64,000 nucleotides of DNA from the human T2T-CHM13v2.0 reference genome, Homo sapiens, in assembly GCF_009914755.1 (NCBI RefSeq), contig NC_060931.1. The stretch is one strand, 5' to 3'. The translations under genes were made by a program, and so were the position numbers. The notes below the pieces were generated by a model. The model ran no database searches, had not been told where the DNA came from, and saw nothing but the letters and a program-made list of their open reading frames with translations. This document shows positions 8,262-63,911 of the stretch, in pieces (position 1 is the first letter of the stretch; each line of letters starts with the position of its first letter).

Positions 8262-10429
8262 ACAGAATGGGAGAAAATAATTGCAAATCACATATCCAAT
8301 AAGAAAATTATATCTGGAATATGCAAATAACTTATACAACTCAATAAGAAAAAGGCCAAGTACTCATTTTTTAAAATGGCAAGATCTGAGTATTTCTCTG
8401 AAGAGAATAAGCAAATTTCTCATAAGGGCATTAAAATGCTTGACATCATTAGCCATTAGGAAAATGACAATCAAACTACAATGAAATACCACTTCACAAC
8501 CACGAGGATAGGTAGAATCCAAATCTCAGTTAATAAAAAGTGTTGATGGAAACATGAAGAAGTTAGAAGCTTTACACACTGTTGCAGAAATACAAAACAG
8601 CACAGCCACTTTGGAAAACATCCTGGCTGTTCCTTAAGTAGTTAATCACAGAGTTACCCTATGACCCGGTATTTCCACTCCTAGGCATATATCTCGGAGA
8701 AATGAAAACATACATCCAAACAAAACTTGTACCTCGGTGCTTTATAGCAACATTATTTATAATAGTCAAAAGGTGGAAACAACTCAAATGTTCATCAACA
8801 AATGAATGTACATACAAAATATAGTATATCCACACAATGGAACATTATTCTATCTTAAAAAGGAATGAAATACTGGTACATGCTACAAGATGAATGAACC
8901 TTGATAATACTGTGCTAGATGAAGTAAGCCAGTCACAAAAGACAACCTATTATATGATTCAGTTTACATAAAATATCCAGAATAGGCAAATGCAATGAGA
9001 CAGAAAGTAGATTAGTAATTCCTTATCGCTGGGGAGAAAGGGAGGGTGATAGCCGGCATGCGGCATGATAGCCCAGGGTATAGTATTTCTTTCTGATTGA
9101 TAAATATGTTCTAAAATTGACTGTGGTCATCGCTGCATATACCTGTAAATATACTCTGAATATACACATATCTGTGAAAATGAAAAACCATAGAGTCGCA
9201 CACTTTGAGTGATTTGTATGGTATATGAACATCTTAATAAAGCTATTTGAAAAAAAGAAGTCTCAATAAATGCATTTTCCATTTACCTCGTCTTCTAGTT
9301 TTACTCCATTAAACATAAAGAACTTGACAATGTTACCAATGTTATGAACTTAAAACCTGGTAATGGGTAATATTTGTCTTCAGCAGAGAGATTACAAAGC
9401 TATTATATAGAGGCAAAAAAGGGTTATGCGGTCTATAGTAAACATGAAATCATCTTCCTTTATAAACATTGGTCATTTTTTTCCTGGAAATATTTATGTA
9501 ACTGTAATGAACAGATACATGTTATTACATGTATTTTTTAAAGTTATTCATAAAGATTTAGTAACGCTGTAAGCAAACCAAAGAAGGACCAGAAAAAATA
9601 TCATTGCAGAAAATAATAAATTTGATTTTAGTATTTTATTTTTAAGTTTTGTATAGGATAGTGTTTGTATTCCCCTTATACAAAGCAAACTTACATCAGT
9701 AAAATGAGTTAAGATCAAAAAATGATAAGACAAAACTATACCCTGGACTGCTATAAATGTTGTACATAATGTTTTTTCAAGCTGCAGATGGTTGAACACA
9801 GATCAGACTTTTTCTGAAAAACGTAAGGAAACTTGCAATATAAGAACAAGTCACCTTTCATTAATATTCCTATCTGTATGAACACAAAAAACAAGCAAAA
9901 AGGGCTAATGAAAGTAGTTTTGGTTTAACTTCACTGTATTTTAAACTAAATGTTCTTTGTCATGGATTAAAGAAGTAGGAGGGGAGTATTCGCTCCACAG
10001 AGATCTCTTTTACAGTGCCAAAACTGATTCTAACATATATATACAAAAACCATAATACAGTATAATACGGATATACAAAACTTAACTTGGTGATTTATTG
10101 TAGGGATAAAATGTTCACCAATGAATTATTTCTGAGGGTCCGGTTGGAGGTGGAATTCGTGCAGTATGGAATTCAACTCTGTTCTGAGAATTCAGGTCCA
10201 CTTGCGGCTAGCATACCTTGCAGATCCGGCGAAAGTTTCTTACAGTAAATTACAATGACCTCAAAGAGCAGGATAACAGCAGGAAACAACCAAAAACAGA
10301 ACCAAGGGTCGTAGAGTAAGAGGAGGCAACAACCGCATGTGCGCAAAAGAAAAGTGTAGAGTTTTCAAGCTGGAAATTGACCTTTTCAAAGACAGCAGAG
10401 GGACAGAGAGGAGGCGGGTGAGGAACAAA

Positions 10430-11160
10430 CATCGCTTGCTGCCTTAAAACGCACAGGGACGCTCCCCAAGTCGTCCAAAAAGTCTAGCCTAGTCCCTCTA
10501 CCGCCCACGCGGCGCCACTGCGCGCCCACCCCCGCGCGCCCTACCTCGCTTACCTTCCCCCCAGGCCAGGAACATCAGCGCGATCACCAGCACGCAGGCT
10601 CCGCCAGGCATCGCTGCTTCCGCAGGTGGGGCGAAAGGCGTCGCAGAGCCCGGGCCGCGGGTGCCAGGAGGATGGGGCCACAGCAGCCCCTCGGGCCTCC
10701 TTTCTTGGATTTTCTCAGTCTGTTGCTGCTTGGAACAGGGAAGCTCCGCGTCCTCGTTCTGGGGTGCACCCAGTCCTTTCGTGGGATAGAGCCTTCGCGT
10801 AATCCGTCTGCGACTCCTCCCTTCCCATTTTGGCTGCTGGCTGACCTGAAAGCCACGCCCAACCTGTCCCCATAGCCCAGCGTGTACCGGCAGTGGCTCC
10901 GCCGCCTTGGATGTCACCGTGCAGTCGCACAGCCAGGAGTCAAGCTACAGGGATGTGGCTCTCCGCCCGCTGCGTCTTGCTGTTCTAACAGAGGCTGTAT
11001 GAAAACTTGGTAATCCTAGAAACTGCTCAGATGGACCTCGCATAAAAGAAGCCTCACAAGGTTACGTTGGAAGGGGAAGTTTCCCATGATTGTATCTGCA
11101 GACGGATTCCTAACTGCGTAATGGGCGCTACTGGTTTGCACCCCAACGCGAAGGCGCTGA
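10430..11160. promoter_or_regulatory. VWDE: CpG island / VWDE promoter and 5'UTR
   Basis: The only GC- and CpG-dense non-repeat stretch in an AT-rich window; surrounds exon 1 and contains GC boxes (ccgccc 10501, 10963). Confidence 0.88.
10554..10611 (-). CDS. VWDE: VWDE coding part of exon 1 (signal peptide MPGGACVLVIALMFLAWGE)
   Basis: gcgATGc at 10611, hydrophobic signal peptide, donor GAAG|gtaagc after 10554; joins in frame to exon 2. Confidence 0.97.
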
Positions 11161-11451
11161 AAATGCTCCTGTCACCTTAGATCTCAGTGATGAACGACAG
11201 GAGGAGGAAGTAGACACTAACGTTGCAACAGTAGATGCCTTTTCTTCTGCCTCTGTGACAGGTTTTCAGAAGTGGAAAGGACTGCATTTAGACACTAGCC
11301 AAACCATGAGGTTTGTCACCTGTATTTGCCAGTGATTCCCAGAGCTCTTACAGTTGTCCCAGGACGCTTTAGCACATGGCCACACGACTCCCAAGGTTGA
11401 CCTGGGAGTTATTAGAAGATCAGAGGGCTCTAATGTCTTCCCCCAACCTCG

Positions 11452-11621
11452 TTTTTGTTTTGTTTTGTTTTGTTCGAGACAAGGTCTCACTCTGTCACCC
11501 AGGCTGGAGTGCAGTGGCACAGTCACAGCTCGCTGGAGCCTTGAACTCCTGGCGTCAAGCGATCTTCCCCCTCAGTCTCCCAAAATGCTGGGATTACAGG
11601 CGTGAGCCACCGTGCCAGGTC
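11452..11621 (-). mobile_element. Monomeric Alu (FAM/FRAM-like)
   Basis: (ttttg)n tail then a ~150-bp single Alu monomer. Confidence 0.82.
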
Positions 11622-12648
11622 TAAGGTCTTCAGAAGTGTGGTTGCCTCTGCAGAGGAACAGGGTCCTTTTTTCAACTGATTCTACATCTTTTTATGTCTG
11701 AAAATGAAACCTCACTGTCCTAGTTTTTCCCTGGCTGTCTCATTCCTTGAGTCTCCCATCCATCACCTTGCACTTGGTTCTCACAGAGCCTTTACCTGAA
11801 GAGGATAGTTTGGGGGTCCAAGTGGGCACCAAGGTTCCACCCACAAATTTGGAGGTTCAAGGTTGGCCTAGGCATGGTGGTGGAAACAGGAGGTGTCCAA
11901 ATGCATAAACAAGTATTTTTTTAATTTCATATAATTCTTTATTTTTAATTTGAAAGGTAAATTACCATTTAAAATTTTAAAGCTTATCATCTCCATAGTA
12001 CAAATATTAACCCATATTGGAAATAATTTCTTTTTGGTACACAATACTTGTGTGTAGCCATCTTTCAAATGCAGCAAGGGCACCCAATTTTCTGGATTAA
12101 AAATAAAATATTACTTTTTGGTGGACGGTAGACAGGTGATTTTTATCTTAAGGCTTAAGTATGGAAGGGCAATATAATGTAGGCACAATGAAAACCCAGA
12201 GATTTCTTAGTGTACAGTTAAGTCTTTTGTTTCCGCTTAAAAAATTCTAATAAAACAGACAAGAAATTAAATGTCAGTTTTCTCAATCTATTTGTGAAAT
12301 CACCAGGAACAAAGTAATTTGATGTGAATCAAATCATAGCAGGACTTTTGTGAATTTATTTTCTAGCAGTATCTATACAAATGTAGTAAACTTTTATACT
12401 TTCTTGGAGGACAACATTACTTATCTGACTTCCATCAAAATACAATTTCAGGTATCGTGGGCCTTATTTTTTTCTTCAGTTTTTGATTGTTTATGAGTTT
12501 ATGAGTTTACAATAAACTTGTGCCAAAACCCAACTTCCCTCCATGTGACTAAAGATGGAAAAAACTAAAAGCAACTTAAGAATTTTTTTTCAAGTCTCAG
12601 TAACCTGGCTTGGATCTGCAAGAATGTATCAATTAAATGCTGGTTATA

Positions 12649-24326: not shown

Positions 24327-25509
24327 CCTTAAAAAATATTTACCCAGAGCATTGTCCTTGAGTATTTTATCAATGTTTTCTGCTAGCAGTTTTATAGTTT
24401 CAAGTCTTAGATTTAAGTAGTTAATCCATTTGATTTCAGTTTTGTATATGGTAGGAGATAAAGGTCTGGTTTCATTCTTCTGCATATGGCTATCCAGTTT
24501 TGCTAACACCATTTATTGAAGAGGTTGTCCTCTCCCCAATGTATGCTCTTGGCACCTTTGTCAAAAATGAGTGGAATGTAATGTAAATGTATGGATATTT
24601 TTCTGGGTTCTCTATTCTGTTTCATGGGTCTATGTATCTGTTTTAATGCCAGTATCATGCTGTTTTGGTTACTATAGCTTTGTAGTATCTTTTGAAGTCA
24701 GGTAATGTGACGCCTCCCACTTTGTTCTTTATGTTCAAGATTGCTTTGGCTATCTGGTGTCTTTTGTGGTTCCATTTGATATTACATGAAATAAAGTTAA
24801 GTGAAATATCTTAAAGATTTCTGTTTGCGTAAAATTTGAATGACATATCTTGAAGTTAATCTCTAATATATTCTAAAACTCTTATAAATATTGCACCTGA
24901 ATATCTTGCCAAAATTGCTGATATTTCTATTTTTCTACATGAATGATTTGCCTATTAGCAACCCTTTCAGACTTCTCATACTGCTTATAACACTAAATGG
25001 AAAACCAAAGGCTTTAGTGTGTTTAATTAAATTCCTGGATTTCCTAATATTTAGTGCATATATGTGAATTCTCATTAGATGAAAAAAAATTACTGGACTG
25101 GCAAACCTGAATTCAAGATTGGGATCTAGTACTTTAAAAACTAGATAACTTCAGGCAAGTTATTTAACAACTCATAAAATTTATTTCTTGATTAGTAAAG
25201 TAAGGCTCATAATCAATTAATACCAAAATAGAGAAGTGTTCAAGATTATCTAATTGATGGCCATACTCACCTCTGTAACATAATATTTTGAATCTAATAT
25301 TGTGAATCTGTTGACCCCACATGATGCACAGGAAGGCATTTGGCATTGAGATTCTACCCAATGAAAGGCTTTAAGACAGATGCTGATTCTCTGAACCCAA
25401 TATATCCTCACATTTGGAGAATGTGAAATCTCAACATGAAAAGTTACCTTCCAGGACCCCATTGCTAGGAGGGCTACTGCACTATACTGAAGAGACTGAA
25501 CAATGTGAG

Positions 25510-25780
25510 GAAGTTCAGTGCAGTGGTTACAATCACAAGTCCTGAAATCAGACTTTTGTTTTGACAGCTGGCTCTGTCACTTTTCACCCAGTTAACTCTG
25601 GGCAAGATACTTGATTTACATTTGACTTCTTTATTTATGTCTAAAATAGTTAATAACAGTGCTTGTCTAATAAATGTATGTTGTGGATTAAACCCAACAA
25701 CACACATGAAGTTGTAGCATGTACAGCATGAGGAACTTGTCCAATAAATGGCTGAAGCTTTTGTTATTGTTATTATCTAT
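25510..25780 (+). mobile_element. MIR (part of duplicated block A)
   Basis: agtgcagtggtta...ctggctctgtcact...ctctgggcaagatactt. Confidence 0.72.
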
Positions 25781-26524
25781 CATGTACCTATCAATGAAAA
25801 CCCATTAACTCAGTATATATTTTCATTGTAGCCCCAAGAAAATGAAATTATAAGAAATGTTCAGGAAACTTAGAGATGGCATATGGCCTTTACGAATTCT
25901 CTCTCTTTCTCACTCTCTCTTCTCTCTCTCACTCTCACTGTCATTCTCTGGTTTTTTGTTTTTTGTTTTCTCTCTCTCTGTCTCTGTTTCCCTCTCTCCT
26001 GTTTTCTCCTGCTCACCTCTTATAATTTAGCCAATACATCACCTTTAGCAAACTATCCTGAACACAAAGCCTGGGTAAAAGCCCCCCTCCTATCATATGC
26101 TCTTATGACTCCCTACCTTTTTACATTGATGCCCAAGTGTAAATGTGACATTAAGCATGATATGAAAGCTATTAATATCTGAAAAATGAAAATATACTGG
26201 TACCTATCATTGGTGTGGTGTAAACATTAAATAAAATTATAAATATATGCAACATATATTTATGTATAATACTTAGCATAATGTCTGTCAAATACTGAAT
26301 GGTTAACAGAGATACTTTCTGTATATTTCTGTATTATTTACAGGCACAGTGACTGAAATATCCTGTTCAGTTGTTTGTGACAGAGCAAATATACCAACTA
26401 GAAATATGAGATCTAAATGGTCGTAATCACCATGCTAGTCATCACTTAGCCCTAGCAAGTCTAAATACTTAGTTCCAAACTGAGCCAGAACCATTGATCT
26501 ATGGGTACTGCCCAACTTTTTCTC

Positions 26525-26740
26525 TATGTTTGGCAAACTTTTTCTCCAAAGGACCAGATAGTAAATATTTTAAGCTCTGTAGACACTATAGTCTCTGTTG
26601 GGACTATTTTACTCTGTCATTGTACAGGAAACACAGTCATAGCCAATATATAAATGACTGGGTATGGCTGTTACAATAAAACTATTCTCAAAAACAGACA
26701 GCAGTCAATTTTACCTGTGAGCCATAGTTTGCAGATCCTG
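26525..26740. mobile_element. MER58A-like hAT element (part of duplicated block A)
   Basis: ttggcaaactttttctccaaaggaccagatagtaaatatttt...gccatagtttgcaga. Confidence 0.8.
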
Positions 26741-27089
26741 CATGGATCCCTGAAAGATTACTTGTATTATTATCTACTTGCCTTCCATAGCAAATTTTCT
26801 TCCTTAATTTCCAAATACATGATTTTTTTAAATTGAAACTCATTTCAAACCTACCTTAATATTGCATTTTCTAATCTGCCTAATAAAAATACAAAAAAAA
26901 ATCTGTATCTGAATCCAAGTTACCTATTTTAGAGCTGGAAAAGTCATCTAGATTAATTTTAAGATTAGGAATAATCTATGTAAAGAAAAGTGTATGTATC
27001 AAAGGCTTTGCCAGCTCTGCAGAAACAAGTTTGAGAAATGGCTGGAGGGTAGGATGGATATCTAGATGTCCACAGAGGCAAGTTAGGGG

Positions 27090-27405
27090 ACAAATGTGTG
27101 TCAATGGTTTGGTGCAAGGCAGCTGGGAGAGGTGGGGATTATGGCATGAAGAATGCATTGGCCATATAAAGGGAACAGCTGCTACCACCCGCTGATTGTT
27201 GTACTGACAGAATTTGAGTCTATTTTGCCAGATAATCTTTTTTTAATAAAAGCCAAAACATTTTTTTCTTTTTGAATTTTAATGTTTTACATTTGTGAAA
27301 AACTCCAATTGTGAAATTTGGCAATTAGTTCAAAACAAAGAAAAAAGAAATGTTCAGACCTAAGAAGCAACTCTAGGGAGCAGCTGCCAATTAGCAACCT
27401 CTGCT
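27090..27405. mobile_element. MER102-like hAT fragment
   Basis: ataaagggaacagctgctacc...gattgttg...ttgccagat...ttggcaattagttcaaa. Confidence 0.5.
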
Positions 27406-27461
27406 CAAGATCAAAGTCCTCATTTTATTGGTAAGAGATGAAAGAACAGAAATTGTCATTT

Positions 27462-28094
<633 letters not shown>

Positions 28095-28199
28095 AGAAAT
28101 TGTCATTTCTTGAGTAAGGCTGCCATTTGATCTCTGACCCCATTGTCGAAATGCACTTTCACTAGCACATCGTCTTCGATTTTGGAAGAAAACTGGGCT

Positions 28200-28425
28200 A
28201 ATTACGTAGCAATTATGGGTGCTGACTTTGTGTTGGGCAGACCGCGTCTGGAAATGTCAGCTCTGGACCCTGTTATGTCTCAGCTTCCTCACTTGTAACA
28301 TAAGAGAAATGAATGCAAACCTCATAGGGCAGTGGTCAGGATTAAATGGAATAATGAATGAAAAGCACTTAGCCCAGTTCCTGGCATACGGTAATCACCT
28401 GATAAATAGAGCTATTATTAAATTT
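28200..28425 (+). mobile_element. MIR (3' part shared with duplicated block B)
   Basis: ctcagcttcctcacttgtaacataag...ggattaaatg...aaagcacttagcccagttcctggcata. Confidence 0.75.
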
Positions 28426-30759
28426 TAGTTTGGAATTAAAATGTTGATATGAGGTAGGGAGAAAAATGCAGGTCTAATTAGCTTCAATGGGTAAGTGTGA
28501 CCATGCACATGTATGTATTGTGTCTTTCTGAGTCTATAGAATAAATATCTCCAAAAATTTTCACATAAATCAGAACTGTTTCTAAAATTTTTTAGCTTGC
28601 AATTAAGAAAAAAATAACAATATGAGTTTCTGTAGAAGTGTCCAAGGATGAGATTGTAGCTCTCCATGTGAAATCAAATCATATAGGAGTGCCTATCTGC
28701 CAGGTGAGCATGAAACATTTTGTATCTCAGTTTCACCTTTAATATTCTGACACAACCTGGATGAGGAAGAAACTATAACTCAAAATAAGCACAGAGACAA
28801 ACATAATTTACTATAAAATGAAACCAAACAAAATTGTCATGTTGAGGAAACATGCAGGTTCTTGTAAATTGTCATGTTGAGCAACAGCTTTAATGATAGA
28901 CTTCGAATAAAATGAAGCCTTTGTAAAGACCTCTTTCTTCTCCTTTAACTACCAAAGAAGATTCCTAGTCTTGCACTAGGGAACTGAGTTTCCTGTTCAT
29001 TATATTTTCAGAACCACAAATTGTTTCTATTGAATAATAGTTTCAACTCCAGGCTGTCATGGAAAAGCCTATGTCACTAACACACTATAATAAAAGGATT
29101 TTGTAGATGATAGAGGATATTATCTGAATTAAATGAACAAAGGTTTCAAAAGAATATAAATTATTATGTTCAGATTTCATTTCTTAAAATCAAATGTATA
29201 GCACACTATATAGAGGCAGGATATGAACAAGAAGATTCCTGGGAGTACTAGCAGGAAAAAAATCTTTTTAATAGTTCTCTTTAAACCCCAATTCCAAACA
29301 GTGATCAGTTCTTATAAATCAGTATGACCTATTGCTAATGATAATCTCTAAAAGCAATAGAGTAGGTGCCAAATTGGACACACAGTTAAATTTTTACCTC
29401 CCTTAATTGCATTAAAATTTCAAATAAATTGAAATATTAATATTTTTATATTTTGTTTACTTATACAGGCCATGATTTGTTCAGTACTGTAACTGAGACA
29501 GAGATGATAATGCATGAGTCACTTAAAAATAGTGAGAAAGCTGTGTTAGTCAAAGTTCTTGCAGGAAACAAACACTGTGATATTATAAGTAGAAAGGGAT
29601 TTAATAGAAGGATTGAATGATCATGAAGTTATTGCAAGGGCTGAGAAACATAATGTAATCTGGGTCCCAGGCATTTCAGAGCAGAAAGATCTGACCTGAT
29701 ATGAGAGCTACTACCTCTGCCCTTGTCAGGAATGTGATGAAATTCTCAATGCCCCTGCAGACAGACACTCACACAGCTCTCAGTGGCTATAACATTGGTG
29801 AATGGAAAATGGAACAGAATCTGGCCACCACCCTTACTAAAATACCCCTAGACATACATGAAACTGAAGACGGGGCACTGGAATGGAGCACTGCTACAGA
29901 AAACCTACTTTTCCATAGTCTTTTCTGTATGGACACATAAGAAGATGAGCATGGCTTCACATGTGCCTCTCAAATTCCACATGAGTAAGTCAAATGGTGG
30001 GAATCCAATTTGCACCTGGAATACTACCTAGAGCAGGTAGTAGACGCAAAGCATTTCATTGTTTTAGCAGCTGTGGTACACGAGAGGAGAATAGCAGGAA
30101 GTTGGAATGAAAGCTGAATGCCATCTGACAATATCCAAGACAAAGTTAAGGAGCCAGCTAATCCCCTGAACAAAATATTAGCCATACCCAGTAATCCTTC
30201 TGTGGCCCCCACCTTATTTCATTTGTCTCTTTGTTCCTTCTGCTAATTAATCCTTTTTTCCCCAGCAATGTTCTTTGTGTCCTCAGTAACCCCATACTAT
30301 AACTGAGCTCATTTACCCTCAAACTCTTCATTGAATCCTTACTCTACGCTCTTGTCTTGTCTCTGTATGGCCACACTGCTTATGAGGAAAGCACTCAGCG
30401 TTGCAGTTTTAAGGAAAGCATTTGTTAGACCAAATTTGAAAAGTTACAGTGTCAGCATTCTCTTGAATTTTCAATGTCTCTCTTATTAAATTTTCCCTTT
30501 AAAATATCCTGATTCCCAACTCTGATGATCATGAGAACTAAACACACTTTTTACCCCCTCTCATTACTGACTTTCTGCCTACTTACATTTGTTGAGGACT
30601 TCAGCATCTGGACCACAGGTTTCTGTCCTTGAACCTGAAATATCTCTGAGTTATTTACATAGATTGTGAAAGAGATTTTTATATTGCTGAATTCATCGTC
30701 TTTTCATTCTCCAACTTTAGTGACTCACCACTACTCTATTTCAACACATTCCAATATCA

Positions 30760-39393: not shown

Positions 39394-42244
39394 CCAATTT
39401 CTTTTTATATGGTTTTCTTTAACAATTTTAGCATATTTAAGACAGTTTTATTTAAAGTTTTTGTCAAGTAAGTCCAATGTCTGTGCTTCATCAGGGATAG
39501 AAATCAGATTCTTTCTAATTTCTCCAATTAATGGGCCATATTTTCTTATTTCTTTGTATTCTTTATAAATTTTTGTTGAAAACTAGACATTTTGAATATT
39601 ACAATGTGTTAACTATAGAAATCAGGTTCTTTCTATTCCTCATGTTGGATCTGTAGTTTTCTGAGAGTTGTGATTATTTATCCAGTGACTTATCTGTACT
39701 GTTTTTGTATGGTTTATATTCTTTGTTATGTATGGTTTCAGGAATCTCTGTTCTTTTTGCCTGTGGTTAACTAGTGTTTTTAAGAGATTTTCCTGAAGTC
39801 CTGGGGAAAAAAAAGAAGAAGAAGGACAAAACAAGATAAAAGAAAGAAAAAATAATAAGGAAAAAAATTCTTCCAGGCTTTATAGATTGGCTCTGTGTTG
39901 GGGCAATGCTTCAATGGTTGGCCAGGCCTTCACAATGCTTCCTTATATTTCACTTCTTGCTTGCTCTGAGACTAAATTTCAGCCAGAGGTGAAGGTCTTC
40001 TCGGGTCTCTTCTGAGCATCCTTTTTCCCTGGGAATGTATGTGGCTTTACAGACTCCACAGTATACTGGCACTTTTCAATGCCCTAATTTTCCCCAAATA
40101 ACTCTTTCCACATTTTTCCCCCAGGCTTTTAGAGTCTCTATTATTTGTGTCAACTGAACTCTCTCACCCCAGATGGCATGAAGTTTTTTCATTTGATTTA
40201 TAATGTTATTGAGGAATGTACTCTGCTCAGCCATTTTTCTGCCCTAAGAGACTTCTGAGTTGCACAAAACAAAGGTGAATACCTTGAGTCTGTCCTCCAG
40301 GAAGCTACACGACAGGACAAAACTACCAAACAAAGTAATAATATTTATGTTTAAGAGTAAGTTCTACTACTCTGCCCTTTCTGGAACCAGGAACCAGGGT
40401 CTTTTATTGAGAATGCAGGCTGCTGGCTTCAAAACTGTCATTGAGTCGGGGTAGGTGGGAGGCAAGGGCAAGTAAAAATAATGCAAGGCTTTTGTGCTTT
40501 TTTTAAGTTGGCTTTTTCTAGAATCAGCATTTGCTAGGTTGCTGTAAAACAAGAAACCATATGTTTTAATACATTTTTTTAAAGAGTTCTGTGACACAGT
40601 TATAATAACTAAAAGGGCAACTGTTTCCTTAGTTTCTCCTAATTTTCCTTTACCTAAACTTTGTCTTTACATTATCGTATGTTCCATTCACTCTCAAATG
40701 TACCTATTGTTCTTACCCACCAGCTCATACATAAGTATCTCCTCCAGTCCTGATCTTTTTCCTGAGCTTCATATTCATACCATCAACAAATGAACCCAAA
40801 ATGACCAAGATTCAACTCATAGCATACCACCTGTAATCTACACATCTGGCCATTGTCTGGATTGTGTCTAAGCTTTAGCCTCCACTCCTAATACTTCCTG
40901 CTTTGTACATCCGCATAATGAAAACTAAACTTTACTCTTGTCTCAATACATTTGTTTTTATTTCATCATGCTGAAATTTTATCTGTTTATCTCATCCAAT
41001 ATACTATAAGCCATTCATATGTGATTACCCAGTACCTAACTCAATATTCAATATTGATAATAAATATTGATGAACTGTATTAACTAATGAAAATTGTAAT
41101 ACTCCAGTCATATCCATAGGTGGCAGTAAGCTCCTAAAATTATGAGGAAAGTGGTCTGTGTCTAAACATAATTAATCACAGAAGTTAAAATGTTAAAATG
41201 ACCTGGTTTAACTTATATTTTGGTCTTTTCATGCATACCAACTGCATAAGCTTTCACTTTTCAGAAATATTAAGCAAGGAGAAGAGAATACAATCTATTA
41301 AACTAGGAGCTCTTTGAAATGTTTTTCTACCTTAATTGCTCAGTTTTCAGACTCACCTATGACACTTCCTCACTCCTTTCAGCCTTCTCATTTGAGTATA
41401 AACTCAGTGCCAATTTTATCTAGAAGAAACTGATATGAAGAGTTTTCAGCCAACATTTAAAGCAAAATACAAGTTCAGTTTAAATAATTTGAATTTCTAT
41501 TTTTCCTAATTCTTTGGATATTCTATAACAAGTGTACAAAGCAATATGAGATTTTTAAAGATGATCTTGTTTTGATAATGAACAAGTTATTTTAATATAA
41601 ATTCAGCAGTTTCCTCTGGAATCCATTTTGCTACAATACTACAAGTATGCCTATATAGATATACCCTGTAAGTAACAACTAGTTTATAAAATGAAATGTC
41701 ACATCACCAAATTATCTGAGACCGTATTTTTCCACTTATCAAATAACAATAAGACATCCATATTCCATCTGGGTTTACTAATTTATCAAGGCCTACTGAA
41801 AATTCCTATTTCTGAAAAAAATCTTCCTATGTACTTTAAAATTAATATTCTCTGGACTTCAAAATTATTTTCCAAACAATGGGCTTTGTTATCTACTCAC
41901 AGATACATTCTGGGATTAGTGTATGAGTTGCAGATGATTTTCCTCATAAAAGATTTTATATGTAGCCTCTGGATCTGGCTTCTATATATTTGTTTGGTAG
42001 TTCCTGAGCAAATCTGTGAAGTTGGTTTAATATATTTTTGGTATCTTAACTCTTTATCTTGACAAGGGACACTCTGCCTACCCCATATGTTTTATTCAAT
42101 CATGCTATATCGCTTTTCCTTAAGTATACCTTAATTTCTAAGAAGTTATTTATTATACCACTAATGTATCATATCATAATAAAGAATAATTTAAAATCAA
42201 TAACAAAAATGAACACAAGATTTCTATGGCTCTTATTTCCCATA

Positions 42245-42923
<679 letters not shown>

Positions 42924-43229
42924 CCGGGTAACCAATTATTGCCACAAGATATAATTTACCTTCTATTCTCAGATGCTGATTTACCAAGGGAGGTGATCAC
43001 ACTTCCCAAAACACTCTCTTGTCACCTTAGGCCTCAGGGAAGAAAGATAGGAGGAGGAAATACATATTAATGTTGCAACAATAGGATCTCTTTTCCTCTG
43101 CCTCTATGACAGGTTTCAGAAATGGAAGACAGAGGACACTTTATACAAACACATGTGGTTAATAATGGTCTATATACTGGTGATTGCAAAATCTTGTTCA
43201 GTGCTAACCACTACCCTGAGTCAAGACCT

Positions 43230-44075
43230 ATAGATCCAAATGCTCATTGAGCAGCTGCCTCGTAAACCTCAGGAAACCAATGTGTTCCCTCAGGACTTCT
43301 ATACCATTCACACACCCACTTCAACATTTCTCTTCATGATCTCCTGTTTCAGAAATCATTCCTTTATTTCCACTGAAACAGAAGCCTGGAAGACATCTTT
43401 GACCCTCTCTACTTCATCCCTGTAGCCATTCAGCTTTTAAAACGTGTCCTTTTCCCTAATATCACTGCAGTCTATTCACTTTTTTGCCTTCTCTGACAAT
43501 ACATTATCGTATATGACTATTGCATCTCACCAGGCTGATGAGGACACTAACTCGCCTTCTTCTCTTTATTTGTGCTCTCTCACCTCTTTAAGCTCTTTCA
43601 GTGGCTCCACAGGTAACCTACAGGAGTCTACAGCGTTAGCTACTCTTTAACCTTATTTCTCTTTAAGTCTCCTACTCCAATACAACCCTCCAGTCACAGT
43701 AAACAACTTGAGATTATGGACACTGACCAATCCCTCTTGTACTTCCTCACAATATTGGATCTCTGGTCTCAAGTATTTCTCTTCTTCACCTTTACCTGGC
43801 TTTCTCCTATCTAAGCTTAAGCCTCAGCTGTAACACCTTATTCTCCTTAGAATTTTCTTAACCTACTAAGAAGGATTCTCACAGCAACTGTCCTTAACAT
43901 TCTCACAGCTCTTTTACCCACTGCATTAAAAATCCCCCTTTTCCTGTCTAATCCACCGAACTGTGAGGTCTGTGAAGATGACTGTTTCTGAGTCAACGTT
44001 ATCCTCAGGGTTGGCTGAATGCCTGAGACACCATTGATACTCAACACAAACTTGCCTGATTTAATTGAATCTAGC
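43230..44075 (-). mobile_element. L2 remnant (duplicated; paralog at 49850-50750)
   Basis: Antisense L2-like motifs; aligns with 49850-50750 (accattcacacacc; cactgcat.aaaat.cccc). Confidence 0.6.
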
Positions 44076-45152
44076 AAAACTATGAATTTTACTTATGTGG
44101 AATGACAGGTCCGTGTCCTCAGCGGACAAAATTATTCAGCAGATTCAAAAGGGAGCTAGGAATAAAGTCCAGGCCAGAGCTCCAGCAGTCAGAGCTGCCT
44201 GTGTGGCACCAGCTGCGAGACCTGGCTTCAGATGCATGAGGGCGCCAAACTGCCTGCTAAAAAGCGGAACTGCTTTGTCCTCTCAGTTAAATTGTTCCCT
44301 TCAAATACTTACTAAACAAAGAGAAAATCTAGTTAATACATATGATCTTTCCAAATTGGCTCTAATTGCCTCTAGGCACTGTTAGGCATAGAAAATTTTC
44401 TATAGTTAAATGCATTTTCAAGAGTCTGGTTGTTTCAAGTCACGGTGTAGTTTATTCCAGACTACACTTTCTCATCATTGCACTATTTCAGTAATACCAC
44501 CTGGTCATGTAAAATCTCAATTATGGTTTCAGTAGTAGTGGAAAAATTAATTCTATTAAAATGCTTAGATGATCTAATTCTGAAGGGTTCAGTTAGAGCT
44601 TAAGTATACATGAATATATGAAGAAGAGTTGAAGTAAATATGAAGGTATGATATTTTGTGGGAATAAAACAACATTTTAAAGTCACTTTCCTATAATAAT
44701 CTATAAAATTTGTGCTAATTAAATCTTAATAAGTTTGCTATGATGTGGGTGGGGAGTACTGAACATGCCAGATTGTTAAATATATCAAAAATATGAAAGA
44801 AATATTTCAAAATAATGGAGGGTAGCTATTCCCATGAGCTTATAAATCATATTAGAAAGCAATAATTACTTTAAAATTAGGTGTAAATAGCCTTAAATAC
44901 ATAGGGGAATTTGGAAAGCAAGAAATAAAACTTCTCGAATAATTGGAAACATGAGTTATCTCATAAACTATATTGGGATAAATGGCTAAACATTTGAGAA
45001 GGAAATAATGCTGAATTTCTAATTTATTTCTTACACAAAACAGAGCAAGATCAAAACCTCAAATACAAAAAAGTAAAATAATAAAAATAACACAAAGAAA
45101 TTTTTTTAATTGTTAGATTCAGAAGATCTTTCCAAGTCAAAAATTAAGCCCG

Positions 45153-45463
45153 AGCCAGGCACGGTTGGTCACACATATAATCCCAAAACTTTGGGAGGTT
45201 GAGGTGGGAGGCTTGCTTGAGGCCAAGAGTTCCAAGACTAGCCAAGGCAACACAGTGAAACCTCATCTCCTCAAAAATCAAAACAAAACAAAAAATTAGC
45301 CAAGTGTGATGGTGCACACCTGTAGTTCCAGCTGTTTAGGAGGGTGAGGTAAATATTCCAGGCTTGAGCCTGGAAGTTGAGGCTGCAGTGAGCTGAGACT
45401 GTGCCACTGCACTTTAACCTGGACATCAAAGTGAGACCCTGTCTAAAAAATAAAGAAATAAAA
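45153..45463 (+). mobile_element. AluJ
   Basis: ttgcttgaggccaagagtt, gaggctgcagtgagct, A-rich tail. Confidence 0.88.
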
Positions 45464-45679
45464 TGAAGTCCAAAGTCCAAAAGAGAATATTGTCACAGTG
45501 CAAAATTTGGAAACATTTAAATATCAAACAACATCATAAATAATATTACAAAGGTCAGAAAGAAAAAACAAAATAAGAAACAAACGCTTGCAAAATGTCT
45601 ATTCCCCAAAATTCACCTATGAATTTAGAGCTAATCTAATAAAAATACTAGTAAGTTCAACTGAGGATGTATTTATAGT

Positions 45680-47660: not shown

Positions 47661-50600
47661 CAACAACTGGTGAACCATAACTGCCTGTCTGGAATATTGT
47701 TAGCGTTCTACCTCAAACCAAGCCAAGTACCTGGCATCAGCACCAACCATCAGTGGAGTTGAAATTAAAAAGAAGCTTGTGTTATAAACTAGTGCTCATG
47801 AATTTTGGTCCAGTTACTGCCAAAATAGAAAGGGTTATTATTTGTATAGTACATTGTGTGGATGGAAAGAGCTGAATACCGCTAGAACAGATTAAACAGA
47901 TTAGCCCGTGAGCTGTGACCAGAGGCTACACCTGATCCTACAGAACCCAAGAGATCCAGTCAGCACCATGTCACAACCCATGCTCCATACATGAGCTTTT
48001 CAAGATATAATTGTAGGGCAGACTGCAGTAGTGGATTCATGTGCCCATGTCCCTGGGTAAGGCTCTTTCTTCTCTGGATTTTGAAAGTTCCTTCTACAAG
48101 ATGTAGATGCCTCATCCATCCTGTTTACTAAGATCATAGCAATTTCCCTCCTCTGGGAGGAATCACCTTCCTTCCTTTGTGTTTTGCCAGACACTGAGGA
48201 ATGAAAGCCTTCAGCAAAAGTATTACCTTGCTTGGGTTTCAATTGTAAGAATTTGGGAGAAATCAGCCAGACCTGAAATGTCTTCACATTTCATGGATTT
48301 CCAGTGTTGCCAACTTGTCTCAGTACAATCCAGCAGTTCAGAGTGCGGGAGACTCTATTACGTGTGACCTAGTGACTCAAGATCCTTCCATCATTTGAAT
48401 CTATCATCTTCAGCAATGGCTGTGTGAATCTCAGAGTGACCTGGGGATAGTTTCCGAACCACCTAGCCATCTTCAGATTTGGGGCTGCATTTGGGGAGGG
48501 AGCAATTTTATTTTCTTTCTTTCAGTCACAGTCCCCAGTCCCTTTTGGCCTACACTTGAGACTTTGCTATAAACAACTCCATTCACTTTTTTGCCACGAA
48601 CAACTCCATTCTGCTTTTTCCTTGGAAAGAAAAGGGCTCTTCTTTTGTTTTTCTTCTTTTGTTTGTAATACACTTTATATTTTAAATCCATAACTATTTT
48701 AAAAAATTAAAAAACAAAAACTTTGTTCAGGCCAAAGAAACACCACTATAAGACAACTGCCAATCAGCAACTTCTGCTGAAGAGGTTCTAGATGAGGGAA
48801 TGGAGGATCAGAAATCTTCATGACTTCAGTAAGTCTGGCATAGTTTCTGTGACCTCAGTGTCCAAATGATAGTTCAATAATACAGCGATTTCTGATTTGA
48901 GATGTCTGATCTGATTGTGCAGAAATTAAGAGCTTAGACTTGATGGCTGGGAGGACCTTTCCAGAGTCTTAGTTGTAGGTCCCAATGTGTCTTTGCTCCC
49001 TTATTTCTAACATAAGGGTATAAATATATATGTCTTAGGGTTATGGTGAGGGTGAAATGGGATAGCGAATGAAAACCACTATCCCCATTCCTGCATGTAG
49101 TAATCACTTGATAAATTGAGCTATTACTAAATTTTAGATAGGAATGAAAATTTAAATGTGAGCTAGTGGGAAAAGAAAGTACAGGCCTAATCAGCTTCAT
49201 TGGATAAGCATGACTAGGCACTGCATGCTTTTCTCCATGGGCCTAAAGAAGAAACCTCTCCAGTTTTATAGCATGAATCAGAAATATGTGCTTCGGCATT
49301 ATTTTGCAATAAATACAAATAAACAAACAAGCCCATGGATTTACATAGATCTTTCAAAAGAGGGGTGGAATAAGACTGTAGCTCTTGTTAACAACATTGT
49401 TAACACTGAACATCCAAGTGCACAAGTCATACAGGAGAGTGTCTTTGTCAGTTGACAAGTGAAACATTACACATCTCGGTTCATCCAGAAAGTTTGATGT
49501 TTGCCTCATGTAGTAGAAACTGCAGAGGTGGGCTCCCCATAGATGAAGCCTGACAAGGATTAGTTGGAAGGGACAGTGCCCCTATCATCCCTGCCCACAC
49601 ATCCTTAACTGTCTTATCTCCAGTGCTTGATTGTCCATGAAAATGACCGTGATTCTCAGAAGGTGTTCCTGCTACCTTCGGTCTCAGTGAGAAAGGTGGG
49701 AGGGAGAAGACTTTAATGTTGCAACAGCAGCATCCTTCTTTCTCTGCAGCATTCACAGGATTTTAGAAATGAAAGGAGCAACTTGACTCTATCCAACTTG
49801 TGTAATCAGTCACCACTTATATGATGATGTTTCCAGAGCTCTCAGCTCAAACCTCTCTCCTAACTTCATACTTGTAGATTGAAATTCTTATTGAAGAGCT
49901 GCCCCCTGGTCTCTCAGACCACAATATGTCCAACCCTGGGCATATGTCCAACCCTGCACCATTCACACACCTGCTTGAAAAACTTCCCTTCATAATTTTC
50001 TATTGCAGGAATAATTCCCTCATTTCTCTTAAACTGGAAACCTTCAAGTCATCCTTGCCTCTTTTCATTGCAGCTCTCACTGTCTGGCAGTCCCCAAAAC
50101 CTCTGTGCTCCCTTAACATCATTCAATTCCATTCATTTTCTTCCCTTCTGATACTGCATGGTTAGGCCACCATAGCCTCTCATCTAGTTTACAAACAGTC
50201 TAAATTATTTTCTTGCTTTTGCCCACATTCCTGTTGAAAAGCTGCTAATTCATCCCCATTGCCCTTTGCATAAGCCCCATGCCCAAAAACTACAAGACTC
50301 TTCAGAGTGGTCCCATCTCCATTTTTGTCATTTTTTCCCACAAGAATATACCACTTTTCCCACACTCAACAACTTTCAGTTATCTAATCTGGTCAAGCTC
50401 TTCCTCATATTTTTATATAGTGCTTCCCAGGCCAGAAGGCTTTCTGTTCCTTACCTTTTACCTGACTATCACCTACTCAGGCTTAACTCTCGGCTGACAT
50501 ATTAGTTTTTCCAGTGTTTTCTTGACCCACCAACAAGGACTCCCATAGCACCATATACCTAACATTTTCAGCTCTTACCTCTAACGACTGCATGAAAATT

Positions 50601-50960
50601 CCCCATTTCCCCGTGTCTTTACTCCACTGAATAATGAGAGGTCCTTGAAGATAAAGATTATGTTTAGTCAAGATGTTATTCCCAGGGAATGGCTCAGTAA
50701 CTGAGTCATTGATGACCCTAAAAAAAAAATTGGTCTGATAAAGTTGAATCTGCTAAAACTCTGAATTGTGTTGATAAGGAATACAAAGGTGTGAATGGAT
50801 ACAGTTATTCAGTAGGTTGTAGTGGAGTTAGAAATAAGGCCCATGATTGGTCCTAGTAGATAGAGTTGCTTCTGCAACCCCCTAAGCTGAGAGACCAAGC
50901 TTAAAAACTCAGCCACTTTGTTCTCCAATTTTTTCTCTCAAATGTTTAAAACAAACAAGA

Positions 50961-51117
50961 GTTGGTAGTGATGAATACATTTATGAAATAGATTTTGGTC
51001 ATGGTTTCACAAATGTATACATACCTCCAAATTAATCAAGTCATATACATTTTTTTAAAATCCAGCTTTTTGCCTGCTAATCATAAGTCATACATCAACA
51101 AAATGGCTTTGAAAAAG
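50961..51117 (+). mobile_element. L1M 3'-end fragment
   Basis: gattttggtcatggtttcacaaatgtatacatacctccaaattaatcaagt. Confidence 0.65.
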
Positions 51118-51849
51118 GAGAAAAGCTAAGTTGATATACAGTTATTGCCAAATGGCTCTATCAATTAAAAAATAATAATTAAACAAGTTCCAAGAATTTG
51201 TCTATTGTTTTTCAACTCACACTACAATCTATTGCATATTAAACTTGCTTAGCAGGACACAACTCAGTGGTATTATGTCTATACTACAGAATATCAGATG
51301 CTAAAAAGGTACTATAGACCATCCACCTTAATCCATTCACTTGACAGTTTAGAGAATTGTGATTCATTCATACTTCTTTCTGTAACTACAATGTATTGCA
51401 CTGTGAGGTCAAATGTATCAGATGTCCTCATACTGCTGTTTCTTTGTTTATCCTATTTCTTCTTCCTAAGATACCTTTCCCAGGATTTCTTACTGACAAG
51501 ACCATTTAATGAAACAACAGAAATAAATCCAGTGTTGAAGAAGTTATAAATTCCATGCCAAAAGAAGTGGTCTCCACAGAGTCACATTCATTGCTCTCTA
51601 TGCCCCCTTATTGTTGGACCCATTAATCTTCATTCATGCTTGCACGGTGATTGCCAAGCTGTATTTTAATAAACTTTAACATGACTCTCTCCAACATAAA
51701 AAATGATTTATTTCTTGCAAATATATAAAAGTAATACTGACAGCTTGTGTTCAAAAAGAAATACTGTTGAACAGACAGTCCTAGAGCTACAAAGCAAATA
51801 TGGCACTTTTATAAGTATTAATCTCAGTTGCACTCTGCTAAGTAAAACT

Positions 51850-61084: not shown

Positions 61085-61515
61085 TCCATAGACAAAGAGA
61101 AACAGATGCTTTATTGTACTTAAGTAAAGTCCTGGAAGTTGTGATATTTTTGGCATTAGGATATTAAATTTTATGCATATATATATATATAAGGTATCAT
61201 ATAAAGAAGAAAGAACACATTATCAGTTTCAATCAACTTTGAATCAAATTTGGAATCTTATACTTTACAACCTGGATAATTTTGGACATGTTATTAATAG
61301 TTCACAACCTTTTCTTCTGGATTTTTGAAATAAGGCTCATAGTCCAATGACTATCTAGCTAGAGAGGCTTTCAAGATTCTCTAATTTATTGCCACATTCA
61401 CTTTGTGACATCCCAATTGTTTTAAACCCATTGACACTGGTTGCATCTGATTGGACCAGGAATCCTCAACTGGTTCATGTGAAGAGACCTGGCACCACAA
61501 TTCTGCCCCATGGCA

Positions 61516-61711
61516 TGTATTAGTCAGCTCAGGCTGCCATAGCAATATGCCATCACCTGGGTGGCTTAAGCAACAAAAACATATGTTCTCCCAGTTCTGG
61601 AGGCTAGAAGTTCAAGATCAAGGCGCTGACATGGTTGGGTTCTTTGCAAGGCTCTCTTTCTGACTTCCAGAAGGCCACTTTCTTCTATGTCCTCATATGG
61701 CAGAGATTCAT

Positions 61712-61745
<34 letters not shown>

Positions 61746-61922
61746 CCTCCCTCTCTCTCCCTTCCTCTTCTTATGAGGCCTGTTCTGTCAGCTTAGGGTC
61801 CCACCCTTATTTCACTCACCTAACCTTAATTACCTGCTAAAGACTCTACTTCAGGTATAGTAACACTGGGGGTTAGGGCTTCAACTTATGAATTTTGGAG
61901 GAACACAGTTCAGTTCATAGCA
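61516..61922 (-). mobile_element. MLT1A-like solo LTR
   Basis: tgtattagtcagctcaggctgccatagc...ttctggaggctagaagttcaagatcaagg...cagttcatagca. Confidence 0.88.
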
Positions 61923-62084
61923 GGCAGTTCCAAGACAGATTCTGATTCTCTAAACCCATTACCTCCTCACCTTTGAATTATTTGAATTCAAAAAATGAAA
62001 AGTCAGCTGATTGAGGGATTAGTTTCAGCCAGGTCACTATTGCACTGAGAGCTACAGCATTATACTAAAGAAGAAACAATATGA

Positions 62085-62355
62085 GGCAGTTCTGTGCAGT
62101 GGTTAAGGCCACTTAACCTGGATTCAAAACGACTTGTTTTGAAAATTGGCTCTGCCACTTACCAACTAGGTAATTCTGGGCAAGTTACTTAACTTGTCTT
62201 TGCCTCTCTATTTCTGTAAAATAGGGATAATAATAGTATTGCCTCATAATGTTATTGTGTGGATGAAATAGACAACATATGTGCAGCTTTAGCAAACCTG
62301 GCATGTAAAATGTGCTCAATAAAGAGTTGAGGCTTTTGTTATTGTTAGTATTGTT
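62085..62355 (+). mobile_element. MIR (part of duplicated block A')
   Basis: tgtgcagtggttaag...ggctctgccacttacc...ctgggcaagttacttaac. Confidence 0.8.
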
Positions 62356-63034
62356 ATTCCTCACGTGGTCTATCAATGGACTCTCATTAACCGAGCAAAT
62401 TCATTTAGTGCAGCCAGAAATGAATTACACATTACTCTGTGAAATGGTCATGGAGTAAAAAACTGCCTATGGCCTTTGTATACCACCCTTTCTCTTGTTT
62501 TTTGTTTTTTGTTTTTCTGGTTAACTCTTCTTCACCCACTAAGAGTTATCTAATATATCACATCTAGCAAACTTACCTGTCCTCAATGGCTTCCATGGCT
62601 TCCTAATTTCAGTATTAAGAACTGAGGCTCTTGACATTGTTTGTGTTAGTTTTAACGTGACTTTAAGCATGTTACACAAAGTATCCAAGCACCAATTTCT
62701 CCTTCAGAAAATGGGAATAATACACAATTGTCTGTCACTGAGGCAGTATAAAATTTAAATAAATAATGTACATACAATAATGAGCATGATGCCTAGTGAG
62801 TACTCAATAATTAACAGAGATTCTTAGATTAGATACTAATCTTGCTGTGTCATTATTACCTGCACAATGATTGAAATATTCTATTCATTTGTTTGTGACA
62901 CAGTAAATATGTGAATTAGAATATAAGATCTAAGATGGCAAACTACATCATCTTAGCCAAGGATCTCTAAATCTTAACTTCCCCAATTGAGCTAGAAGCA
63001 TTTTGCTCTATAGGTTCTGCCTAGCTTTTGCTCT

Positions 63035-63250
63035 AGGCTTGTCATTTTTTTCTATAAATGGTCACACAGTAAACATTTTTGGTGTTACTAGCCAGTCTTT
63101 TGCACAGAATATTTCTCTCTGCAATGTGAAGCCAAAGCAGCTATAGGCAATCTGTGACCAAATGGGTACAGCTGTGTTCCAATACAACCTTATTTACATA
63201 CATAGAACACTGTTGTATTTGGCATGCCAGCCATAGTTTGCTGACAGATT
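63035..63250. mobile_element. MER58A-like hAT element (part of duplicated block A')
   Basis: ttttttctataaatggtcacacagtaaacatttt...gctgtgttccaatacaac...gccatagtttgctgac. Confidence 0.72.
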
Positions 63251-63911
63251 CCTTGCAGATTACACTATAATTATCTATGACTGTTTTCCCTCATTTTCAA
63301 CTATATGATCTTATTTTTCACTATGTTGAAACTCCTGCCACATCTCTATTTTAGAACTTCTGTGTGTTCTAATCTGTACAATAATAAACCAGAGTAATAT
63401 AATATTCCAATTATAACTGAATGAAAAATGAGTTTTTGTTAGAACTGGAGATACCTTCTCAGTGATTTTGAAGATTTTTTAATATAAAAAAATTCCAAGA
63501 AAAGTGGGTCTCCTCATTTTGGTGAAGATGGAATGAGAGTCCTGGAGCCCCACCCCCAGATTCTGGGACAGCTGCCAACTGGCAATCATACCCAGTAAGT
63601 AGGGCTGACTTAGCCCAAGAAGGTATTTCCCGGTTAAAAAAAACAGGCAATTATGTGAAACTAATAGAGCTTAGAATCTTTGAAGAATCTGATGGTGCAT
63701 TGCCCTTGCCTACACTTCTCTGGCCTGGCAGTCCTCATAGTTTATTTCCTACATGTAGTTGTGTCATTTTGTCAGTAAAGCAGCACTTGGCACCATTAAA
63801 ACCAAAATGTTAAATTTATTTTATACCAGATATAATGTTAATTTTGTACATAAAACTCTACTTTGCAAACTGAGATTCAATAGTAACATCCTATTCAAAA
63901 AAACATGCTTT

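What the first reader, a model, noticed from the sequence alone, without database searches (positions are those of the whole stretch)
11015..11355. VWDE promoter-proximal flank has two paralogs 32 and 38 kb away (block C)
11017 tagaaactgctcagatggacctcgcataaaagaagcctcacaaggttacgttggaagggga aligns with 49514 tagaaactgcagaggtgggctccccatagatgaagcctgacaaggattagttggaagggac. The core gtcaccttag..tcag.ga..ggaggagga..taa(c/t)gttgcaaca..pyrimidines..acagg.tt.agaa.tg recurs at 11171, 43021 and 49671. Only the VWDE-adjacent copy has kept its CpGs. Inference: the distal copies could be dead promoters or shadow enhancers of VWDE.
Basis: partly seen in the sequence, partly recalled or inferred. Interest (0 to 1): 0.7.

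Follow-up and report, generated by a model that had tools for sequence, protein, structure and literature searches.

The report
Ancient duplication relic beside VWDE
A 330-base stretch just upstream of the human VWDE gene has two much-decayed copies 32 and 38 kb away; they belong to a patchwork of very old local duplications and are likely inert leftovers rather than spare promoters or enhancers.

Summary
The paralogy is real. C1 (11017-11350) aligns with C3 (49514-49844) at 67% and with C2 (about 43010-43202) at 77%; no fourth copy was found. Block C is about 270 bp of locus-specific DNA joined to the 5' end of a truncated LINE (L2 by recall). All three copies share that junction, so the DNA was duplicated after the LINE inserted. 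C2 and C3 stay colinear for about 1.55 kb, and blocks A, B and E are also duplicated at about 70%. Together they form a broken tandem array of four partial units, likely about 100 million years old. The distal copies hold no trace of the VWDE CpG island, start site or exon 1, so 'dead promoters' is unsupported. Between C2 and C3 the unique part is no better kept than the LINE and flank (65.9% vs 64.5%, p=0.74). One loose end remains: the C1-C2 core is 84% identical, striking within that pair but not across the array (P 0.07-0.21). CpG excess in C1 (10 vs 2 vs 0) fits its place on the VWDE CpG-island edge. Chromatin and cross-species data were unavailable. Verdict: an ordinary, likely neutral relic, with about 10% chance that C2 is a retained cis-element.

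The parts
11017..11289 (+). C1, locus-specific part of block C (left part 11017-11165, core 11166-11277), on the edge of the VWDE CpG island
11290..11350 (+). C1 stub of the shared truncated LINE; no homology found beyond about 11354
   Evidence: stub aligns to C2 and C3, 0 of 2000 shuffles as good in each; right flank no better than shuffles; alignment with off-locus LINE copies
42949..43137 (+). C2, locus-specific part (core 43016-43127); left end lies 24 bp from an LTR-like insertion
43138..44040 (+). Truncated LINE in unit 2. Tool support covers 43169-43433; the L2 name and the 3' boundary are recalled
44041..44499 (+). Block F, flank right of the LINE, shared with unit 3
49514..49783 (+). 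C3, locus-specific part (core 49667-49775); starts 33 bp after block B' ends
49784..50730 (+). Truncated LINE in unit 3. Tool support covers 49792-50056; 3' boundary recalled
50731..51275 (+). Block F', flank shared with unit 2
27267..28732 (+). Block B (carries later L1-like and Alu inserts), paralogue of 48638-49481
   Evidence: 70% over 787 columns
48638..49481 (+). Block B', directly left of C3
25000..26966 (+). Block A, paralogue of 61097-63476
   Evidence: 1268/1811, K2P 0.39
61097..63476 (+). Block A', with an LTR-like insert at about 61517-61922 that A lacks
40629..41389 (+). Block E, paralogue of 65003-65802 just beyond the window (L004); holds exon 2 of LOC105375155
   Evidence: 70% over 678 columns
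42246..42925 (+). Dispersed LTR-like element with an Alu inside (MaLR type, recalled), next to the truncated left end of C2
   Evidence: 67-78% matches over about 360 bp in 7 other held loci
10400..11200 (.). VWDE CpG island and its edge (CpG observed/expected 0.66-0.89 in 200-bp steps)

Best explanation
Block C is one piece of a broken array of old local direct duplications upstream of VWDE, and its two distal copies are likely neutral leftovers. Shown: each copy is about 270 bp (190 bp in C2) of locus-specific DNA joined at the same point to a truncated reverse-transcriptase-bearing LINE; C2 and C3 are colinear across unique DNA, LINE and right flank; blocks A, B and E are duplicated at a similar depth. 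Inferred order: the LINE inserted; a multi-kb unit (roughly A-B-E-C-LINE-F) was duplicated in tandem several times, probably by unequal crossing-over, about 85-115 million years ago; deletions and later LTR, L1, Alu and CTAGE-retrocopy insertions then broke the units. C1 is CpG-rich because it lies on the edge of the VWDE CpG island, which is expected to be unmethylated in the germ line (inferred), while the distal copies lost CpGs like ordinary methylated DNA. The high C1-C2 core identity is taken as chance variation or an old conversion tract.
For: Shared LINE junction. LINE is dispersed: 8 off-locus matches vs 0 for the reversed control; RVT_1 E=0.003 for the best of those; a seed-free profile of them hits C3 (E=0.011) and C2 (E=0.053). 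C2-C3 colinear over 42949-44499 / 49599-51275. K2P 0.38-0.53 in A, B and the C2-C3 segments. C2-C3 unique part 65.9% vs LINE plus flank 64.5%, Fisher p=0.74. C3 private changes equally frequent in core and flanks, 21/107 vs 27/134. No promoter, exon or intron paralogue. No coding signature in C and no significant Pfam, PDB or Rfam match. A' carries an LTR-like insert absent from A whose dispersed relatives are only 69-75% identical to it, so the duplication is older than that insertion.
Against: The C1-C2 core is 93/111 identical (K2P 0.19, CI 0.10-0.30), unmatched in 5000 permutations of that pair; private changes in the core are low for C1 (6/107 vs 21/134, p=0.014) and C2 (8/107 vs 33/134, p=0.0005), though the core was picked for this very similarity. 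C1-C3 and C2-C3 core distances (0.36, 0.33) sit a little below the background, which fits constraint on C1 and C2 slightly better than conversion (P 0.02-0.35 by assumed background). Paralogue comparison cannot see constraint well; no orthologue or chromatin data were available. The neutral yardstick assumes the LINE is unconstrained.
Confidence: 0.7

Rival explanations
1. The 110-bp core is a duplicated cis-regulatory element kept under selection in C1 and C2 and lost in C3; C2 would act as a distal or shadow enhancer of VWDE.
For: 84% C1-C2 core against 45% on the left and 65% on the right; within-pair permutation 0 of 5000. C1 and C2 both keep a TGACA word on each strand around a central TGTTGCAACA-type palindrome; C3 keeps only one TGACA (reading these as MEIS/TGIF-type and C/EBP-type sites is recalled). 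Promoter-to-distal transitions after duplication are documented (10.64898/2025.12.03.692127, section 15), and duplication signatures occur in 33.9% of mouse shadow sets (PMC13345019 abstract).
Against: Across the array a 111-column window this good arises with P 0.07 at the pooled identity, 0.21 at 70%, 0.56 at 72%, and 0.08-0.18 under block resampling; block E reaches 83% and B 81%. The hub annotation has no element at 43k or 49.6k, and its enhancer 10616-11181 covers only 16 bp of the core.
Confidence: 0.1
2. The array is what remains of a lost tandem gene family, and block C carries a decayed exon or splice acceptor (branch-like TAAC/TAAT, pyrimidine tract, CAG-G in all three copies).
For: Four partial units are typical of gene clusters (general knowledge). 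Acceptor-like anatomy in all copies. An AG..GT-flanked 56-nt stretch in block A (about 26342-26397, minus) has 7 synonymous vs 4 other codon differences from A' over 21 codons. Block E holds an annotated lncRNA exon.
Against: No frame is kept across the three C copies: indels of 1, 2, 4 and 5 nt and stops in every frame. No stop-free synonymous excess in C. 0 of 22 translated stretches reach a Pfam cut-off; 0 PDB matches at E<=10; a six-frame genome search returns only the three copies as credible hits. The block A signal is one of many blocks times six frames. No annotated transcript uses the C acceptor.
Confidence: 0.12
3. The unique part of C is itself an unrecognised old low-copy repeat that inserted three times independently.
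For: The genome-wide pattern tests are weak: a same-style pattern from a MIR-like element gave only 4 off-locus matches. The core has imperfect inverted ends.
Against: Shared LINE junction and shared flanks. Three patterns hit only the known copies; a looser fourth gave 7 off-locus matches, 0 of 7 extending past the seed. Folding z from +0.60 to -1.60 in 6 strands. A repeat origin before the duplication would still fit the best explanation.
Confidence: 0.04
4. The distal copies are dead VWDE promoters left by partial 5' gene duplication.
For: C1 lies 257 bp from the start site. Both distal copies are truncated on the promoter side (C2 at an LTR-like insert, C3 at the B' junction), so a promoter could have been deleted. 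Block E has a minus-strand exon with a donor about 1 kb from C2 once the LTR is discounted.
Against: No homology of the promoter, exon 1, nearby intron 1 or exon 2 to any distal unit. The DNA left of C2 and C3 is AT-rich blocks E and B.
Confidence: 0.04

Closest known systems
Regulatory-element families made by segmental duplication (Weaver and Lowe, 10.64898/2025.12.03.692127; abstract, section 15 and passages read)
   Same: A promoter-proximal noncoding stretch with paralogues made by duplication. The paper reports 2648 clusters with a single open element and many closed homologues, the pattern expected here.
   Different: The examples I read are recent duplications with chromatin, STARR-seq and CRISPRi evidence. 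Here identity is 65-70%, the core promoter is not in the duplicated part, and no activity is known. VWDE does not occur in the main text; supplements not seen.
Shadow enhancers of duplication origin (PMC13345019, abstract and one methods section; 10.1101/703314, abstract)
   Same: Homologous noncoding sequences tens of kb apart near one gene.
   Different: Shadow enhancers are defined by activity on the same gene with overlapping expression; neither is shown here.
Segmental duplications in the usual sense (at least 1 kb, at least 90% identity; definition recalled)
   Same: Local, direct, kb-scale duplicated blocks with mosaic structure.
   Different: Far older and more diverged (65-70%), so below the usual catalogues.
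L2 (LINE-2) fragments (PMC6433296, passages: active about 100-300 million years ago, about 500,000 fragments)
   Same: The right end of block C and the tails of C2 and C3 match a dispersed RT-bearing LINE.
   Different: The three copies here descend from one insertion by duplication; the left 270 bp are not matched by the LINE profile.
Promoter/enhancer repurposing in mammals (PMC6172195, abstract only)
   Same: Offers a route by which promoter-flank DNA could act distally.
   Different: Concerns orthologous elements with measured activity turnover, not decayed paralogues.

Membership tests
Old local (tandem) duplication | Colinear, same-strand homology running across repeat and unique DNA | tested here: met
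   C2-C3 42949-44499 / 49599-51275; blocks A, B, E
Old local (tandem) duplication | Shared insertion junction inherited by the copies | tested here: met
   LINE start at about 11290, 43138 and 49784
Segmental duplication, strict sense (recalled definition) | At least 90% identity | tested here: not met
   65-70% over whole blocks
Shadow enhancer | Enhancer activity of each copy | not testable with these tools
   No chromatin or reporter data; hub annotation lists elements only at 10048-11181 and 11494-11683
Shadow enhancer | Same target gene and overlapping expression pattern | not testable with these tools
   Needs contact maps and CRISPRi
Shadow enhancer | Sequence constraint above neutral background (supporting, not defining) | tested here: inconclusive
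   C3 none (p=0.74; 21/107 vs 27/134); C2 borderline, array-wide P 0.07-0.21; paralogues only
Duplicated (dead) promoter | Copy includes start site, CpG island or first exon | tested here: not met
Dispersed repeat (unique part of C) | Further copies elsewhere in the genome | tested here: inconclusive
   None found, but power is low for old families (control); no Dfam available
L2 LINE (tail of C) | Dispersed copies with a reverse-transcriptase motif | tested here: met
   8 vs 0 matches; RVT_1 E=0.003, below the curated cut-off, for L030 and E=0.063 for L036; 0 Pfam hits for L033 and for the 2 window stretches, of which the C2 one was read out of the motif's frame; profile hits
L2 LINE (tail of C) | Match to an L2 subfamily consensus rather than another CR1-group LINE | not testable with these tools
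   The name L2 and the 3' end are recalled; no repeat library held
Pseudogene exon | Kept frame, synonymous excess or protein homology | tested here: not met
Structured RNA | Fold beyond shuffles or Rfam match | tested here: not met
   z +0.60 to -1.60; 0 matches at gathering score; none of 8 weak matches overlaps C2 or C3

The most novel reading that the evidence does not exclude
The 110-bp core at 43016-43127 is a cis-element duplicated from the VWDE promoter flank about 100 million years ago and still held by selection with its parent, a shadow enhancer of a regeneration-linked gene whose origin can be read from a shared LINE junction, with a decayed third copy as a built-in control.
Probability: 0.1. 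Interest if true: 0.55.

Novelty: new member of a known kind. Interest (0 to 1): 0.22.

Why it matters
As a neutral relic it matters little: it records a tandem array upstream of VWDE that is too old for standard duplication catalogues, and I found no description of it in 9 literature searches. If C2 proved constrained and active, three copies of one element (promoter-adjacent, distal kept, distal decayed) would be a neat natural test of how duplication makes redundant enhancers, at a gene required for appendage regeneration in axolotl (PMC7390686, title, abstract start and passages). If other mammals carry genes in these units, the array would mark a gene family lost in humans.

Tried and rejected
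Sliding nhmmer self-scan timed out; replaced by masked BLASTN and HOXD70 scans. A five-copy 'block D' (13.3k, 25.5k, 28.3k, 49.0k, 62.1k) is a dispersed MIR-like element (name recalled), not a unit of the array. Genome DNA search with C1 returned only itself and missed the known paralogues, so it says nothing. Two early genome patterns were mis-built and did not match even the known copies; discarded. Apparent open frame in C1 (11114-11332): no significant family or structure match; a look-alike search in the protein atlas was not available. Two weak protein hits at C7:77.12 Mb have no DNA homology; a third on C17 (E 6.5) was not checked. Hairpin or MITE reading of the core: not significant. 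LINE identity from local DNA alone failed; the two off-locus hits of the tail pattern did not extend convincingly. The idea that the LINE extends left through the core was not supported: the seed-free upstream profile from 6 of the 8 copies had no hit at E<=5, but it covered only 70 bp upstream. No left part of C was found left of the LTR near C2 or right of block B at 28.8-30k. A profile search of the whole genome and earlier scan notes were not available.

Full report
Observation. BLASTN finds 11017-11302 vs 49514-49796, 11166-11277 vs 43016-43127 and 43024-43128 vs 49674-49775. With HOXD70 scoring C1-C3 is 216/324 identical with score 9286, against a maximum of 1930 in 30 shuffles; C1-C2 is 142/185 over 11160-11354. 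Profiles of the block find exactly three copies in the window and none in 200 kb of flanks, 80 kb on the VWDE side and 120 kb beyond (best E 0.23). C2 lacks the left 85 bp, and C3's core is looser than the quoted consensus.

CpGs. C1 has 10, C3 has 2 and C2 has 0 (p=0.039 for C1 vs C3). Eight of the ten lie left of the core. Five of the nine that face a C3 dinucleotide face TG or CA, which fits decay of ancestral CpGs or gain in C1; the other four look like gains. CpG observed/expected stays at 0.66-0.89 from 10400 to 11200, so C1 sits on the edge of the VWDE island. That position is a sufficient explanation (inference; methylation not measured).

Anatomy. The right end of the block is the start of a LINE. 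A pattern from the three copies, its letters chosen with the L2 motif in mind, has 8 matches elsewhere in the genome and 0 for the reversed control. All 8 translate to an HLYA(D/G)(D/V)-type motif. The best has RVT_1 at E=0.003, below the curated cut-off; of the 5 stretches scanned, 2 had an RVT_1 hit, and neither window stretch did. A profile of those 8 loci without the seed hits C3 at 49843-49913 (E=0.011) and C2 at 43196-43257 (E=0.053); the seed-free upstream profile hits nothing. The name L2 and its 3' boundary are recalled. The stub in C1 (11290-11350) aligns to both other copies, with 0 of 2000 shuffles as good. All three therefore share one junction between about 270 bp of locus-specific DNA and the LINE.

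The array. C2 and C3 are colinear over 42949-44499 / 49599-51275, through unique DNA, LINE and right flank. Block A (25000-26966 / 61097-63476), block B (27267-28732 / 48638-49481) and block E (40629-41389 / 65003-65802) are also direct duplicates at about 70%. B' ends 33 bp before C3 begins, and C2 begins 24 bp after an LTR-like element, so both distal copies are cut on the left by later events (inference). The simplest reading is a unit of roughly A-B-E-C-LINE-F, present in four broken copies. K2P distances are 0.39 (A), 0.38 (right part of B) and 0.45-0.53 (C2-C3 segments). At a neutral rate near 2.2e-9 per site per year (recalled) that is about 85-115 million years. Two internal checks agree: the duplication postdates a LINE of a kind active about 100-300 million years ago (PMC6433296, passages), and block A's predates an LTR-like insert whose relatives are 69-75% identical to it.

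Dispersed repeat? Three genome-wide patterns from the unique part match only known copies: 2 of 2 (C2, C3; C1 has a 1-nt deletion), 2 of 2 (C1, C3) and 2 of 2 (C1, C2). A looser one gave 10 matches, 7 off-locus, against 0 for the control; 0 of 7 extend beyond the seed, and 3 of them belong to one unrelated younger repeat. Power is low: a same-style pattern from a MIR-like element gave only 4 off-locus matches. An old low-copy family is thus not excluded, but the shared junction and flanks make three independent insertions unlikely.

Dead promoters? The block starts 257 bp upstream of the annotated start. Profiles of 10540-11016, 9900-10540 and exon 2 find only themselves in the window and flanks (best other hit E 0.15), and C1's flanks align to the distal flanks no better than shuffles. 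Not supported.

Constraint? For C2-C3 the unique part is 65.9% identical and the LINE plus flank 64.5% (Fisher p=0.74); 8% of tail windows match the core's 74%. No 50-column island in the 6 main alignments beats permutation below p=0.05 (0.05-0.75); with 111 columns E and the C2-C3 tail give p=0.04 and 0.047. The result against my reading is the C1-C2 core: 93/111, K2P 0.19, with 0 of 5000 within-pair permutations as good, and few private changes in C1 (6/107) and C2 (8/107) but not C3 (21/107). The core was chosen for this similarity, and array-wide the chance is 0.07 at pooled identity, 0.21 at 70%, 0.56 at 72% and 0.08-0.18 by block resampling. Chance, an old conversion tract and real constraint all remain open; orthologues decide.

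Coding or RNA? Every frame of every copy has stops, and indels are not multiples of three. No stop-free synonymous excess was found in C. None of 22 translated stretches reaches a Pfam cut-off, the PDB gives 0 matches, and a six-frame genome search ranks C1, C3 and C2 first with the other 3 of 6 matches at E 0.74-6.5, two of them checked and without DNA homology. Folding z-scores are not significant and Rfam has no match at gathering score.

Literature. Nine searches, read mostly as listings of titles and abstract starts, showed no description of this array or of a VWDE distal enhancer; subscription papers and bioRxiv supplements were not searchable. Weaver and Lowe show promoter-to-distal transitions after duplication, and also report 2648 clusters with one open element and many closed homologues. 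PMC13345019 defines shadow enhancers by shared target and overlapping expression. Cattle keep the order TMEM106B, VWDE, SCIN, with unnamed LOC entries between TMEM106B and SCIN that I could not identify (PMC8113768, passages).

Verdict. Real paralogy of an ordinary kind: an old local duplication relic, likely neutral in the distal copies (0.70). A retained element at C2 (0.10) and a lost gene family (0.12) are the live alternatives. Interest 0.22.

Noticed in passing
window 41088-41160 and L004:1569-1641: An 86%-identical stretch in block E holds CCATAGGTGGCAG at 41114 in both copies, a CTCF-like word (recalled). A duplicated boundary site between C1 and C2 would bear on any enhancer model. 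The best 111-column window in E has permutation p=0.04.
   Followed up: partly
window about 26342-26397 and 62860-62915, minus strand: A 56-nt AG..GT-flanked stretch in block A; over the 21-codon ungapped block it has 7 synonymous vs 4 other differences from A'. Possible decayed exon; no homologue in 200 kb of flanks.
   Followed up: partly
window 27381, 48754, 63569: A short CA(G/A)CTGCCAA word recurs in three units, suggesting that unit 4 once held the start of block B; the alignments are too short to be significant.
   Followed up: partly
window 46100-48560, minus strand: The CTAGE-like pseudogene seems to run beyond the annotated 46312-47304: a hydrophobic stretch near 47500-47560 resembles the family's membrane anchor (recalled), and about 1 kb of unassigned sequence lies upstream, right against block B'.
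   Followed up: partly
window 40297-50707, minus strand: LOC105375155 starts inside the 3' part of C3's LINE tail, antisense to it, and its second exon lies in block E; its first intron spans C3, B', the pseudogene and C2.
   Followed up: no
window 44497-44590 and 45827-45925: A short direct duplicate at about 80% identity, 1.3 kb apart, at the right end of unit 2; origin unexplained.
   Followed up: no
window 11388-11410: A near-perfect 23-bp inverted repeat just right of where C1's homology ends, followed by a short Alu-type insert with a 12-bp target duplication.
   Followed up: no
window 40629-41060: The left part of block E gives a weak match to the same LINE profile (E 0.11 in the window; E 0.0025 for its partner in L004), so it is probably a second LINE fragment older than the duplication.
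   Followed up: partly
L041 (G000:C7:77116800-77121200): An inverted duplicate of about 1.4 kb at 84% overall identity with arms 1.6 kb apart; unrelated to block C.
   Followed up: no
window 10400-10760 (VWDE exon 1 island): In Pallas's cat the VWDE first exon carries an allele-specific methylated region (PMC10071556, passages), so the island may not always be unmethylated.
   Followed up: no
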